Below are positions 45,266 to 47,996 of a DNA stretch of 64,000 nt, piece by piece. Both the position numbers and the translations under genes were made by a program. Origin of the DNA: Bradymonadia bacterium (GTDB taxonomy: Bacteria; Myxococcota_A; Bradymonadia; UBA7976; UBA1532); contig JBKAGE010000037.1 of the NCBI GenBank assembly GCA_046290225.1, forward strand, positions 32,001-96,000. The letters run 5' to 3'. The notes below the pieces were generated by a model. It searched no databases, was not told where the DNA came from, and saw nothing but the letters and a program-made list of their open reading frames with translations. Every line of letters begins with the position of its first letter. Position 1 is the stretch's first letter.

Positions 45266-45269
45266 GTCG

Positions 45270-45353
45270 TACCGGAGGTCGGAGTCGAACCGACAAGGCC
45301 ATCACAGCCAACCTGGTTTGAGCAGGCCGCGTTTACCATTTCGCCACTCCGGC
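45270..45353 (-). tRNA. tRNA-Leu(CAA), long variable arm
   Basis: GCCGGAG...GCCTG-CT-CAA-AC-CAGGT...GTCGG-TTCGACT-CCGAC-CTCCGGT-A; no encoded CCA. Confidence 0.9.
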
Positions 45354-45471
45354 AAAAGACACCTCGCCTCTCTGAGAGAGACGAGGCGCCCCGCCCCTGA
45401 TCGTGCACGCCATGGATGAGGCTCGAACTGACACAGCCAGATCGTGCTCTGCACTCGCCACGGCGCATATG

Positions 45472-45558
45472 CGGAAGAGGAGGGAGTCGAACCCCCAAGG
45501 CTTTTCACAGCTCGACCGGGTTCAAACCGGCTGCCGTCACCTGTCGGCTTGCTCTTCC
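45472..45558 (-). tRNA. tRNA-Ser(TGA), atypical D-arm
   Basis: GGAAGAG...GCCGG-TT-TGA-AC-CCGGT...GGGGG-TTCGACT-CCCTC-CTCTTCC-G. Confidence 0.88.
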
Positions 45559-45585
45559 AGTTGGGCTACGGTGCTCCGGCTTTTG

Positions 45586-45752
45586 GCTCCGGTGCTCCGG
45601 CCTCATCGCCCGCCATCAGGGCGGCGATCTGGCGCCCAGATGCGGCGCTCCGATCCTCGACGTAGCCTCTGGCTACGCCTGCGGTCGGAACACCACATCT
45701 GAACACCACCTCACCACCCTGCTGACGAGCGCTGCGACCTCCGCACCTCCGC
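45586..45752 (-). repeat. Long-hairpin repeat, copy A
   Basis: Minus strand: GCGGAGGTGCGGAGG...CAGATGTGGTG...CGCAGGCGTAGCCAGAGGCTACGTCGAG...GCCGGAGCACCGGAGC. Confidence 0.75.
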
Positions 45753-45832
45753 GTGCCCGGCCTGATGTTGGCTCCAGTTTTGTGTTGCTGGAGCCCACGT
45801 TAATCTGGGCCCGTGGACCCTTTGGCTTGTCG

Positions 45833-45917
45833 TGGATGGGGAGGGAATCGAACCCCCGGGGTGCGTACGCACGGCGGGACTACAAGCCGCCCCGGCCCCC
45901 TACCGGTCTACCCATCC
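45833..45917 (-). tRNA. tRNA-Tyr(GTA), degenerate (C31-C39 mismatch, G37); possibly a pseudo-tRNA
   Basis: GGATGGG...GCGGC-TT-GTA-GT-CCCGC-C-GTGCGTACGCAC...GGTTCGATTCC...CCCATCC-A. Confidence 0.7.
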
Positions 45918-46016
45918 AAAAATGTTCGCCCACAGGGGCTCGGCAGCTCGTCGATGGGTGAGCACCGCGCATGTGCACTCGATCACCAACCAGACGCTGA
46001 GCCCCTGGGCAAAATG

Positions 46017-46101
46017 TGGACAGGGAGGGAGTCGAACCCACGGGGTGCGTACGCACAGCGGATTTACAGTCCGCTCCGGCCCCCCACCGGACTACCTGTC
46101 C
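46017..46101 (-). tRNA. tRNA-Tyr(GTA), atypical D-arm
   Basis: GGACAGG...GCGGA-CT-GTA-AA-TCCGC-T-GTGCGTACGCAC...GGGTTCGACTCCC...CCTGTCC-A. Confidence 0.85.
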
Positions 46102-46153
46102 AAAAGGCGCTCATTCACAGGGGTCGAATGACCCCACTCGAACCCAAAGCACA

Positions 46154-46326
46154 TATGTACTTGCCCCGCGGAGGCTCTGGGGCTCGGTGGCTGGCCGGTG
46201 AGTGAGTGTGCAGTCGTGGTGGCAAAAGCGCAGGCGTGGCCGGAGGCCCCGTCGAGCATTTTGACGCCGCGAAAGTACGCTCAATCGCCGGCCAGACGCC
46301 GGGCCCCAGAGCCGGAGCGCCGGAGC
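46154..46326 (+). repeat. Long-hairpin repeat, copy B
   Basis: TATGTACTTGCCCCGCGGAGG...AAAGCGCAGGCG...CGTCGAGCATTT...GCCGGAGCGCCGGAG; folds by eye into a ~140-nt hairpin with many G-T pairs on the plus strand. Confidence 0.78.
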
Positions 46327-46334
46327 AAAAAGTG

Positions 46335-46422
46335 CGGAGGCGGAGGGATTCGAACCCCCACGACCCTTGCGGGCCCTACCAAGGTAGCAACCTGGCCTCT
46401 TCACCAATTTGAGTACGCCTCC
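46335..46422 (-). tRNA. tRNA-Ser(GCT)
   Basis: GGAGGCG...CCAGG-TT-GCT-AC-CTTGG...GGGGG-TTCGAAT-CCCTC-CGCCTCC-G. Confidence 0.9.
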
Positions 46423-46449
46423 ACACAAGGCTGAGCTGTCACGCATCAG

Positions 46450-46534
46450 TGCCGCGAGCCGGATTCGAACCGGCACGACCAAAGGCGGTCCCCGGGCTCT
46501 CAACCCGGTGTGTCTTCCGTTCCACCACCACGGC
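46450..46534 (-). tRNA. tRNA-Leu(GAG)
   Basis: GCCGTGG...CCGGG-TT-GAG-AG-CCCGG...GCCGG-TTCGAAT-CCGGC-TCGCGGC-A. Confidence 0.9.
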
Positions 46535-46543
46535 AAAAATCAG

Positions 46544-46630
46544 CGGAAGAGGAGGGAGTCGAACCCCCAAGGCCCTTTCGAGCTCACCCGTATTCGAAAC
46601 GGGCGCCATCACCCATTGGCTTGCTCTTCC
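46544..46630 (-). tRNA. tRNA-Ser(CGA), atypical D-arm
   Basis: GGAAGAG...CCCGT-TT-CGA-AT-ACGGG...GGGGG-TTCGACT-CCCTC-CTCTTCC-G. Confidence 0.88.
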
Positions 46631-46663
46631 GTATGGCTCCAGAGCTTCAGCCATGGAGCACTG

Positions 46664-46748
46664 TGGACAAGGAGAGAGTCGAACTCCCGAGGTGCGTACG
46701 CACGACGCGTTTACAGCGCGCTCCGGTCCCCTACCGGCCTACCTGTCC
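46664..46748 (-). tRNA. tRNA-Tyr(GTA), atypical D-arm
   Basis: GGACAGG...GCGCG-CT-GTA-AA-CGCGT-C-GTGCGTACGCAC...GGGAG-TTCGACT-CTCTC-CTTGTCC-A. Confidence 0.85.
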
Positions 46749-46756
46749 TCAAAATG

Positions 46757-46845
46757 CGGAAGCGGCGGGAGTCGAACCCGCAGTGCCTTTCACGGCACAC
46801 CTGTTTTCCGGACAGGCGCGGCGAACCGATATCCGCCTCGCTTCC
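46757..46845 (-). tRNA. tRNA-Ser(GGA), atypical (A8, C33)
   Basis: GGAAGCG...CCTGT-CC-GGA-AA-ACAGG...GCGGG-TTCGACT-CCCGC-CGCTTCC-G. Confidence 0.85.
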
Positions 46846-46983
46846 AAACATCACACACATGTATCCCACCAGCATGCCGACGCAATACAACCATCTCATC
46901 AACACGCAACATGAAGACGCGATACACACGTGTATCAAACGGCACGCACCTACCATCGCCGCCAGAGATCAGAAGTCAGGAAG

Positions 46984-47067
46984 TGCCCGGGGTGAGATTC
47001 GAACTCACACGTCCTCACGGACACCGGCTTCTGAGGCCGGCGCGTCTACCAGTTCCGCCACCCGGGC
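46984..47067 (-). tRNA. tRNA-Leu(CAG)
   Basis: GCCCGGGTGGCGGAACTGGTAGACGCG-CCGGC-CT-CAG-AA-GCCGG...GTGAG-TTCGAAT-CTCAC-CCCGGGC-A. Confidence 0.93.
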
Positions 47068-47174: not shown

Positions 47175-47209
47175 AAAAAAAGCCCCTCGGCAGATGCCTG
47201 AGGGGCTTT
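47175..47209 (-). terminator. Intrinsic terminator (attenuator) between the leader peptide and the tRNA array
   Basis: Minus strand AAAGCCCCTC-AGGCATCTGCC-GAGGGGC-TTTTTTT: GC-rich stem followed by 7 U. Confidence 0.9.
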
Positions 47210-47229
47210 CGTGCGAAGACCGGCAGGCC

Positions 47230-47337
47230 TCAGCTCGAACTCCCCTCGAGGGCACTCAGAAGCAACGACGCGCAATAAGACAGGCGCAAGTCGAGGCTTG
47301 AGAGGCGAGAGTTGGAGGTGTTCGAGATGAAGTGCAT
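47230..47337 (-). CDS. Putative attenuator leader peptide MHFISNTSNSRLSSLDLRLSYCASLLLSALEGSSS (35 aa; 11 Ser, 8 Leu, 1 Tyr)
   Basis: AAGGGA Shine-Dalgarno (47346-47351) 8 nt before the ATG; the stop lies ~20 nt before the terminator; too short for the ORF track. Confidence 0.82.
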   Translation of the reverse strand: MHFISNTSNSRLSSLDLRLSYCASLLLSALEGSSS

Positions 47338-47365
47338 GAGAACTATCCCTTGTTGAGTGACTCGA

Positions 47366-47394
47366 AAGGTAGCGGCATAGTCTGACTGTGTCAA
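47366..47394 (-). promoter_or_regulatory. Sigma70-type promoter of the leader-tRNA transcript
   Basis: Minus strand TTGACA (47394-47389), 17-nt spacer, TACCTT (47371-47366); AT-rich upstream segment. Confidence 0.82.
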
Positions 47395-47477: not shown

Positions 47478-47996
47478 TCAGGGGACCCATATCTCCTCCC
47501 GGATCGCCCAGCGCTCGTGATCACGCCATGCACCATCCAAAAAGAGGTAGCTCTTGGAGTAGCCCTCACGCTCGAAGCCCACCCGCTTCACGAGCTGAAT
47601 CGATCGCATGTTCTCGGGCCGGATGTTGGCCTCAAGACGGTGCAAGCCGATGCGAGAAAACGCCCACTCCAGACAGCTGTGCATCCCCTCCTCCATCTTC
47701 CCTGAACCCGCATGGGGCAAGAAGGCGCCGTAACCCATGTACGCGCTGCGGAACAGGCCCATGGAGATCTGGCTGAGGTTGAACACCCCCGCGGGCTCCC
47801 CTGAGGCCTGATCGATCAACACAAGAGTGCGAAAGGCATCGCTCTGCCGATCGATGAGCAGCTGGAACGCCTCTACCGTACGCGCCGTAGAAAACCAGGG
47901 CCCGTGCAGGGAGACACTGGCCTGCGCCGCCGCGATGAACGCCATCTCGTCTTCAGGCACCAATGGTCGGAGTAGAGTTCTTGCGCTCGAGATCAA
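47478..47996 (-). CDS. RimJ/RimL-family GNAT acetyltransferase (second copy)
   Basis: GAGGAGG SD then TTG start; SAYMGY, LHRLEANIRPEN.RS, GFEREG.S..YL.LDG.WRDHERWA. Confidence 0.88.
   Translation of the reverse strand: MISSARTLLRPLVPEDEMAFIAAAQASVSLHGPWFSTARTVEAFQLLIDRQSDAFRTLVLIDQASGEPAGVFNLSQISMGLFRSAYMGYGAFLPHAGSGKMEEGMHSCLEWAFSRIGLHRLEANIRPENMRSIQLVKRVGFEREGYSKSYLFLDGAWRDHERWAIREEIWVP

What the first reader, a model, noticed from the sequence alone, without database searches (positions are those of the whole stretch)
47175..47326. Mutually exclusive protector, antiterminator and terminator pairings in the leader RNA
Seen: leader codons 31-34, GAGGGG-AG-UUCG (47247-47236), can pair with the terminator 5' arm CGAA-AG-CCCCUC (47211-47200): 6 bp, a tandem A-G/G-A mismatch, then 4 bp. 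That would be an antiterminator. The same segment can instead pair with codons 4-8, CUCGAAC-A-CCUC (47326-47315), as a protector (7 bp plus 4 bp). Inference: a ribosome reaching the stop covers the antiterminator strand and allows termination. A ribosome stalled in the early or middle Ser/Leu run frees that strand and allows read-through. An untranslated leader would form the protector and terminate. This is the full 1:2 / 2:3 / 3:4 logic.
Basis: partly seen in the sequence, partly recalled or inferred. Interest (0 to 1): 0.85.

Follow-up and report, generated by a model that had tools for sequence, protein, structure and literature searches.

The report
Leader-peptide switch gating spare tRNAs
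A tiny 'test' gene rich in serine and leucine codons is wired to a stop/go RNA switch in front of ten spare Ser/Leu/Tyr tRNA genes; this bacterium has six such switches, each matched to its own block of spare tRNAs, so it probably makes a block only when ribosomes run short of those tRNAs.

Summary
The pairings are real. The antiterminator (GAGGGG-AG-UUCG with CGAA-AG-CCCCUC) is the base of a longer hairpin, -33.9 kcal/mol against -23.3±3.1 for shuffles. In folding it wins only when a ribosome sits at codons ~6-25 of the 35-codon leader; blocking GAGGGG restores the terminator. The protector is only partly right: its 7-bp helix forms (p 0.93-0.97), the 4-bp helix does not (0.01), and it is no better than codon shuffles. 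The switch precedes ten supernumerary Leu/Ser/Tyr tRNA genes. The genome has six such units covering 18 amino acids; each leader is enriched only in its own block's amino acids (here 20 of 34, p 3e-8). A relative has four; its orthologous Asp/Glu/Phe/Gln unit gained Arg in both leader and array. The same switch heads RNA-ligase genes. Best reading: a ribosome-stalling attenuator that releases reserve tRNAs when those tRNAs are depleted; no expression data. The mechanism is textbook; eight paper searches found no report of it on tRNA genes. This scan noted the design before on other DNA (phages; e1-2978539).

The parts
47366..47394 (-). sigma70-type promoter TTGACA-17-TACCTT; start of transcription inferred near 47359
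   Evidence: matrix trained on 26 housekeeping tRNA promoters of this genome: score 12.9, p 0.001 against 1500 random windows; position; missed by the generic scan
47346..47351 (-). Shine-Dalgarno-like AAGGGA, 8 nt before the ATG
   Evidence: sequence
47230..47337 (-). leader ORF, 35 codons, MHFISNTSNSRLSSLDLRLSYCASLLLSALEGSSS; 11 Ser, 8 Leu, 1 Tyr; all six Ser codons, four Leu codons
   Evidence: 20 of 34 against 5.7 expected, p 3.4e-8; 11 distinct cognate codons against 8.5 expected, p 0.03
47320..47330 (-). protector 5' strand (UCA and CUCGAAC), pairing with 47240-47234 and 47232-47230
   Evidence: p 0.93-0.97 in untranslated RNA; not above codon-shuffle chance
47252..47306 (-). rod hairpin of the untranslated leader (codons 11-29)
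   Evidence: pairs above 0.9
47236..47247 (-). antiterminator 5' strand (codons 31-34, E-G-S-S)
   Evidence: (p 0.007)
47213..47234 (-). apical part of the antiterminator hairpin, holding the stop codon
   Evidence: a stop-containing inner helix is seen in the paralogues
47200..47211 (-). shared segment: antiterminator 3' strand and terminator 5' arm
47175..47210 (-). intrinsic terminator hairpin with seven U
   Evidence: -24.3 kcal/mol; region z-score -3.25
45269..47067 (-). array of ten long-arm tRNA genes: Leu CAG, Ser GGA, Tyr, Ser CGA, Leu GAG, Ser GCT, Tyr, Tyr-like (called Thr TGT), Ser TGA, Leu CAA
   Evidence: the 'Thr' gene (45832-45917) is 71 of 86 identical to the Tyr gene beside it with GTA in register; a full housekeeping Leu/Ser/Tyr set lies elsewhere

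Best explanation
A ribosome-mediated transcription attenuator that gates a reserve block of Ser/Leu/Tyr tRNA genes. RNA polymerase starts near 47359 and a ribosome translates the 35-codon leader. If Ser, Leu and Tyr codons are read fast, the ribosome passes codon 26 and covers GAGGGG; the terminator forms and the array stays silent. If it stalls at one of the 13 cognate codons between 5 and 25, the antiterminator hairpin forms before the terminator's 3' arm is made and the ten tRNA genes are transcribed, which feeds back on the signal. An untranslated leader probably folds into a rod plus the 7+3 bp protector and terminates. It is one of six amino-acid-sorted modules that together form a spare tRNA set. 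The likely trigger is loss of the tRNAs themselves (cleavage or damage) rather than amino-acid starvation, which more tRNA would not cure. SHOWN: sequence elements, leader-array match, predicted folds, recurrence in two genomes. INFERRED: translation of the leader, coupling, termination, read-through, function of the tRNAs, the trigger.
For: Six leaders against six arrays give a diagonal table: own-set p 3e-8, 1e-6, 2e-5, 0.01, 2e-6, 0.04; all 30 off-diagonal cells p 0.20 or more. In 10 of 10 leader-tRNA units the window -24..-6 from the stop pairs with the unit's own terminator arm at p 0.002-0.029, against 2 of 43 ordinary terminators at p 0.05 or less. Footprint walk and GAGGGG block behave as a switch. 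Relative G023: orthologous leader with 7 Arg instead of 1, and two tRNA-Arg in its array that G000's lacks; two both-side changes in that terminator stem. Promoters at p 0.001 or better ahead of 8 of 9 tRNA units scored. Housekeeping tRNA clusters of relatives show no cognate leader (best fraction 0.25). For the trigger: 22 of 33 array tRNAs differ from the housekeeping isoacceptor in the anticodon loop, and the same module heads RNA-ligase genes (PF09414) in both genomes.
Against: No RNA, ribosome or reporter data. Folding is equilibrium only; a competitive antiterminator is common in this GC-rich genome (rank 112 of 625; 5 of 43). The test window and arm limits were chosen after seeing the units. 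At the likely decision point the antiterminator is favoured by about 2 kcal/mol even without a ribosome. The protector is no better than shuffles in this unit (0.55 against 0.50). 7 of the 20 cognate codons lie past the sensing window. A weak promoter-like site lies behind the terminator (score 7.3, p 0.02, below all 26 training sites). The Cys/Met/Pro unit folds differently and has a poor U tract; the G023 Pro leader has only 4 Pro; a divergent G023 tRNA-Trp has no leader. Only two genomes carry the units among those searched, and no orthologue of this Ser/Leu/Tyr leader was found, so it has no covariation of its own. The array tRNAs are divergent (7 of 10 reach Rfam's cut-off).
Confidence: 0.77

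Rival explanations
1. A general translation-stress sensor: any stall in the leader (antibiotics, ribosome damage) opens the switch, and the amino-acid match only tunes it.
For: The fold is indifferent to why the ribosome stops anywhere in codons 6-25. The same module heads RNA-ligase and HNH genes with mixed-residue leaders. The Anabaena reserve tRNA operon is induced by ribosome-targeting antibiotics (PMC8421152, section 27).
Against: Leaders match their own arrays and no other, and leader and array gained Arg together in G023; a general sensor would not need six tailored leaders.
Confidence: 0.12
2. Two-state switch only: terminator and antiterminator are functional, the protector is incidental, and an untranslated leader may read through. 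This qualifies the best reading rather than replacing it.
For: Protector not above chance in this unit; antiterminator about 2 kcal/mol ahead from 47200 to 47184 in untranslated RNA; significant sequestering only in the two Asp/Glu/Phe/Gln units and the HNH unit of 12 tested.
Against: The protector forms first (p 0.97 at 47228), the estimated barrier to refold is up to 17 kcal/mol, and protector plus terminator wins by 3-5 kcal/mol at full length.
Confidence: 0.35
3. The hairpin is a plain terminator (of the upstream GNAT gene or of a small RNA), the ORF is chance, and the array is silent, decaying or has its own promoter.
For: Divergent tRNAs; weak internal promoter-like site; competitive alternative folds are common.
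Against: The GNAT gene ends 270 nt before the hairpin with a promoter in between; leader composition p 3e-8; the design repeats in ten units.
Confidence: 0.06
4. A T-box or riboswitch-like RNA, or a small peptide acting in trans.
For: T-boxes also couple tRNA status to a terminator/antiterminator (PMC4052509, passages).
Against: No Rfam match over the leader other than one at 20.8 bits against a cut-off of 54. The paralogous peptides share no sequence; the orthologous pair shows 13 non-synonymous and 1 synonymous change, which fits selection on codon identity and RNA, not on a peptide.
Confidence: 0.03

Closest known systems
Leader-peptide transcription attenuators of amino-acid operons (E. 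coli trpL, passages of PMC13178558; multivalent thrL and ilvGMEDA, and pheST, recalled)
   Same: Short leader with control codons, 2:3 antiterminator against 3:4 terminator, stall-dependent read-through. Two distant genomes of the same phylum carry a like module (leader ending ..TEG.., CCCCCUC arm) ahead of an acetolactate-synthase-like gene (gene name recalled from the sequence, not tested).
   Different: The controlled genes are tRNAs, so the output is the sensed molecule itself; six parallel units divide 18 amino acids; no Rfam leader family matches.
Long tRNA arrays (L-arrays), Anabaena trn operon with repressor TrcR (PMC8421152 abstract, sections 18 and 27; PMC10272220 passages)
   Same: Supernumerary, divergent tRNA set beside a full housekeeping set; there co-regulated with an RNA ligase (rtcB) and HNH genes, as the module here heads RNA-ligase and HNH genes.
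   Different: One long operon controlled at initiation by a repressor; 'attenuat' and 'leader' occur 0 times in both main texts. Here short blocks sorted by amino acid, each with its own leader.
T-box riboswitches (PMC4052509 passages)
   Same: tRNA status decides terminator against antiterminator.
   Different: T-boxes bind uncharged tRNA directly; no T-box match here; sensing is through translation.
Phage tRNAs that evade anticodon nucleases (PMC10264068; title and start of abstract in the listing only)
   Same: Spare tRNAs with altered anticodon loops (22 of 33 here).
   Different: These are chromosomal genes of a cell; nuclease resistance was not tested.

Membership tests
Ribosome-mediated leader-peptide transcription attenuators | Short upstream ORF enriched in codons tied to the downstream genes | tested here: met
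   20 of 34 Leu/Ser/Tyr, p 3.4e-8; promoter and SD-like site
Ribosome-mediated leader-peptide transcription attenuators | Intrinsic terminator between leader and genes | tested here: met
   -24.3 kcal/mol hairpin with seven U, 23 nt after the stop
Ribosome-mediated leader-peptide transcription attenuators | Antiterminator exclusive with the terminator and covered by a ribosome near the stop | tested here: met
   (computed only)
Ribosome-mediated leader-peptide transcription attenuators | 1:2 protector that causes termination without translation | tested here: inconclusive
   predicted at p 0.93-0.97 but not above shuffles; kinetic only
Ribosome-mediated leader-peptide transcription attenuators | Leader translated; stalling gives read-through in vivo | not testable with these tools
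   needs RNA or ribosome data; two synonymous differences in one low-depth contig are only a hint
Catalogued amino-acid operon leaders (Rfam Trp/His/Leu/Thr/Phe leaders) | Match to the family model; biosynthetic or synthetase genes downstream | tested here: not met
   no match; tRNA genes downstream
L-arrays (Anabaena trn type) | Supernumerary tRNA genes beside a housekeeping set | tested here: met
   89 Rfam tRNA hits against 20-57 in 30 other genomes of the order; housekeeping set present
L-arrays (Anabaena trn type) | One long mixed array | tested here: not met
   six blocks of 1-10 genes sorted by amino acid
L-arrays (Anabaena trn type) | Repression at the promoter by TrcR direct repeats | not tested
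   no search for a TrcR homologue or its repeats was run
L-arrays (Anabaena trn type) | Spread by horizontal transfer | tested here: inconclusive
   patchy (2 genomes among those searched) but no integrase or phage family among 75 flanking ORFs
T-box riboswitch | T-box covariance match | tested here: not met

The most novel reading that the evidence does not exclude
A cellular 'tRNA-pool surveillance and resupply' system: a free-living bacterium keeps a near-complete second tRNA set split into six sensor-gated modules, each opened only when its own tRNA class is destroyed (for example by tRNA-cutting toxins of rivals, prey or phage defence), with altered anticodon loops that resist the cut and RNA ligases under the same switch; leader codons co-evolve with array content.
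Probability: 0.4. Interest if true: 0.92.

Novelty: new variant of a known kind. Interest (0 to 1): 0.8.

Why it matters
How single bacterial tRNA genes are regulated is stated to be largely unknown (PMC8421152, section 27); the worked case there uses a repressor. This would be isoacceptor-specific feedback in which a tRNA controls its own reserve genes through translation speed. It offers a function for supernumerary tRNA arrays and a ready test: each 200-nt leader is a portable reporter for depletion of a defined tRNA class, and the grouping of amino acids may point to the threats that remove those tRNAs together.

Tried and rejected
No orthologue of this leader: DNA searches of 41, 31 and 113 genomes matched tRNA genes only, and one copy in the own genome. 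Asp/Glu/Phe/Gln leader: 1 of 146 candidate stretches in genome contigs (G023's own contig), 0 of 233 in metagenomes; of 113 class genomes only G023 gave a full-length match, and none of the 18 weak loci examined showed a leader-headed array. Array-type Tyr pattern: 0 in viral contigs, 1 chance hit in metagenomes. Switch pattern: 29 of 401 phylum genomes; of 30 loci read only the own one headed a tRNA array. Sequence-only model: strong hits only to its training units in 113 genomes, 38 candidates scored per genome, so low sensitivity; none of 17 weak loci headed an array. My leader detector missed G023's Asp/Glu/Arg unit (weak U tract, found by eye), so its negatives are soft. No RNA holder listed: no evidence either way. 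Folds begun at 47370 (parts) included promoter bases that compete with the protector; redone from 47360 and 47357. The walk used inconsistent terminator limits and is not used for numbers. Protector duplex test: p 0.12-0.90 against random sequence in all 12 units. Codon diversity significant in 1 of 6 leaders. Prophage origin not supported. 'tRNA-Thr' rejected as a Tyr paralogue. Lineage not established: the Atlas look-up and a viral scan with BioB gave nothing firm; Myxococcota is my inference.

Full report
Setting. On the minus strand a GNAT gene ends at 47478. Then come a promoter TTGACA-17-TACCTT (47394-47366; p 0.001 with a matrix trained on 26 housekeeping tRNA promoters), an SD-like AAGGGA, a 35-codon ORF (47337-47230), a terminator (47210-47175) and, 162 nt after the stop, ten long-arm tRNA genes (47067-45269). 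They are 3 Leu, 4 Ser and 3 Tyr; the gene called Thr is 71 of 86 identical to the adjacent Tyr gene. A full housekeeping Leu/Ser/Tyr set lies elsewhere, so the array is spare. The lineage is not established; Myxococcota is my inference. Pieces of the leader region occur nearly unchanged in two marine DNA runs (192 nt with 3 differences, 151 nt with none).

The observation. The antiterminator is longer than described: the 6+4 bp are the base of a hairpin whose top holds the stop codon. The 10 bp alone give -13.6, the whole -27.7 to -35.8 kcal/mol, the terminator -24.3; 0.25% of 2000 shuffles do as well. With a 13-nt footprint past the A site and RNA ending at 47180, antiterminator probability is 0.01 at codons 2-3, 0.34-0.47 at 4-5, 0.63-0.98 at 6-25 and at most 0.04 from 26; footprints of 9-15 nt shift this by a codon. 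Forbidding GAGGGG to pair raises terminator probability from 0.00-0.13 to 0.97-1.00 at three stall sites. Thirteen of the 20 Leu/Ser/Tyr codons lie in codons 5-25.

The protector. From 47200 to 47184 the antiterminator leads by 2-3 kcal/mol; at full length protector plus terminator leads by 3-5. The refolding barrier is at most 17 kcal/mol by a path heuristic. So it can work only kinetically. It is not above chance: 22% of 3000 codon shuffles give a helix of 7 bp or more, sequestering is 0.55 against 0.50. Of 12 units only the two Asp/Glu/Phe/Gln leaders and an HNH leader passed (fractions 0.05, 0.01, 0.01).

A caution on energies. Among 625 terminators of this genome the antiterminator margin ranks 112th, and 5th of 43 that follow long ORFs. 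A competitive fold alone proves little. Position does: in all 10 leader-tRNA units the 19 nt at -24..-6 from the stop pair with the unit's own arm at p 0.002-0.029, against 2 of 43 ordinary terminators at p 0.05 or less. I chose window and arms after seeing the units.

Six units in this genome. It has 96 tRNA genes by ARAGORN and 89 Rfam hits against 20-57 in 30 other genomes of its order. Upstream of the extra blocks lie matched leaders and hairpins: C20, Arg/Lys/Val/Ile x9 (cut by the contig end), MYVQNTIVNVRLKRRVKSVRRLRVIRVRREGGGTF; C42, Asp/Glu/Phe/Gln x7, MFCFFDTDVLECALFQQEQERFEQDIEGGNLA; C79, Ala/Gly/Thr x7, a 59-codon GTG leader; C42, Cys/Met/Pro (Met only at a relaxed threshold), a 37-codon GTG leader that also has 5 His; C77, Trp, with a WW pair; and this one. 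Each leader is enriched in its own set (20/34, 20/34, 17/31, 24/58, 14/36, 2/25; p 3e-8 to 0.04) and in none of the other five (30 cells, p 0.20 or more). Together they cover 18 amino acids. Stops lie 20-30 nt before the terminator arm; 9 of 10 units fold the same long antiterminator, the Cys/Met/Pro unit does not. No integrase or phage family was found among 75 flanking ORFs.

A relative. G023 (same family, other genus) has four units: Ser x3 behind SSSAVR repeats written in TCA/TCG/TCC (start cut off), Leu x4 behind a leader with LLRLLLLL, Pro x3 (weak, 4 Pro), and the orthologue of the Asp/Glu/Phe/Gln unit. That leader, MFRFFDSQRLDIALFRREQERFERDIEGRKPS, has 7 Arg against 1, and its array holds two tRNA-Arg that G000's lacks. 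The pair shows 18 identical, 1 synonymous and 13 non-synonymous codons; the terminator stem has 11 identical, 2 both-side and 1 broken pair. One event in two genomes is not a statistic, but it is the change the model predicts. Housekeeping clusters and single tRNAs of relatives had no cognate leader; a divergent G023 tRNA-Trp has none either. No further arrays turned up in the searches listed under Tried and rejected, which were of limited sensitivity.

The same module on protein genes. A sequence model of nine units also found it ahead of RNA-ligase genes in G000 (C34) and G023 (C77) and an HNH gene in G015, with mixed-residue leaders and promoters. These three were found with a model containing the G-rich strand, so their pairing scores are not independent.

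Mechanism. Fast decoding carries the ribosome over GAGGGG and the terminator forms; a stall at codons about 6-25 lets the antiterminator form first and the tRNAs are made. All dynamic steps are inferred from folding and from established attenuation (trpL, passages of PMC13178558). More tRNA does not cure lack of amino acid, so the useful trigger is lack of tRNA. In line with this, 22 of 33 array tRNAs with a housekeeping isoacceptor differ in the anticodon loop (3 of 36 had none to compare; divergence alone could explain this), and RNA ligases share the switch. Leu, Ser and Tyr tRNAs are the long-arm class, a plausible joint target (inference).

Prior knowledge. The Anabaena trn operon is a reserve array induced by translational stress through the repressor TrcR, together with rtcB and HNH genes (PMC8421152: abstract, sections 18 and 27; PMC10272220: passages); neither main text contains 'attenuat' or 'leader'. 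Eight searches aimed at leader or attenuator control of tRNA genes or at attenuation itself showed no such report in their listings. The library lacks most subscription journals, and I read no supplements; the array lists in the supplements of PMC8421152 may include such genomes. This scan has noted the design before, mostly in phages and once for a Leu/Leu/Tyr/Ser array; these are unchecked AI notes, and my reading was set down before I saw them.

Verdict. Observation partly confirmed, interpretation supported for terminator and antiterminator, open for the protector. It works like a multivalent leader-peptide attenuator but belongs to no catalogued family and has a different target. New variant of a known kind; interest 0.8.

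Noticed in passing
G000:C34:374569-375660 (L078) and C44:41110-41500 (L079): Two further tRNA blocks (Pro with several tRNA-like units bearing odd inserts; Asn and His) follow a shared CTGGCACGCCCNCTGCTCTAG motif resembling a sigma54 promoter (label recalled) instead of a leader; six such motifs in the genome. Asn and His are the two amino acids missing from the leader-gated set.
   Followed up: partly
G000:C34:31136-31300 (L168); G023:C77:32024 (L166); G015:C73:8435 (L161): Same leader-terminator module ahead of RNA-ligase (PF09414) and HNH genes, with mixed-residue leaders.
   Followed up: partly
G000:C42:38538-39797 (L076): A nucleoside-hydrolase gene (PF01156) sits inside the Cys/Met/Pro unit; the leader has 5 His codons but no tRNA-His follows, perhaps lost.
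   Followed up: partly
G004:C225:400-1480 (L064): Promoter, two short ORFs overlapping at TGATG, a terminator, then two 133-nt tRNA-like genes around tRNA-Pro.
   Followed up: no
L117, L118 (G167, G147): Leaders ending SLLLITEG.. with the same CCCCCUC arm ahead of an acetolactate-synthase-like gene (name recalled): classical attenuators with the same 3' module.
   Followed up: no
G000:C20:480-555; L053: tRNA-Arg with the uncommon anticodon GCG in the spare arrays of both genomes.
   Followed up: no
window 46756-46845: Array tRNA-Ser(GGA) has C at the usually invariant U33 (loop CCGGAAA).
   Followed up: no
G000:C14:27995-28067 and C24:180-334: A tRNA called Pyl (anticodon CTA) behind two small ORFs; an Arg pair at the start of C24 that may continue the cut C20 array.
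   Followed up: no
G000 C51, C8, C54; G023 C18, C50, C97, C4: Three RtcB matches in G000 and five in G023, a rich RNA-repair complement.
   Followed up: no
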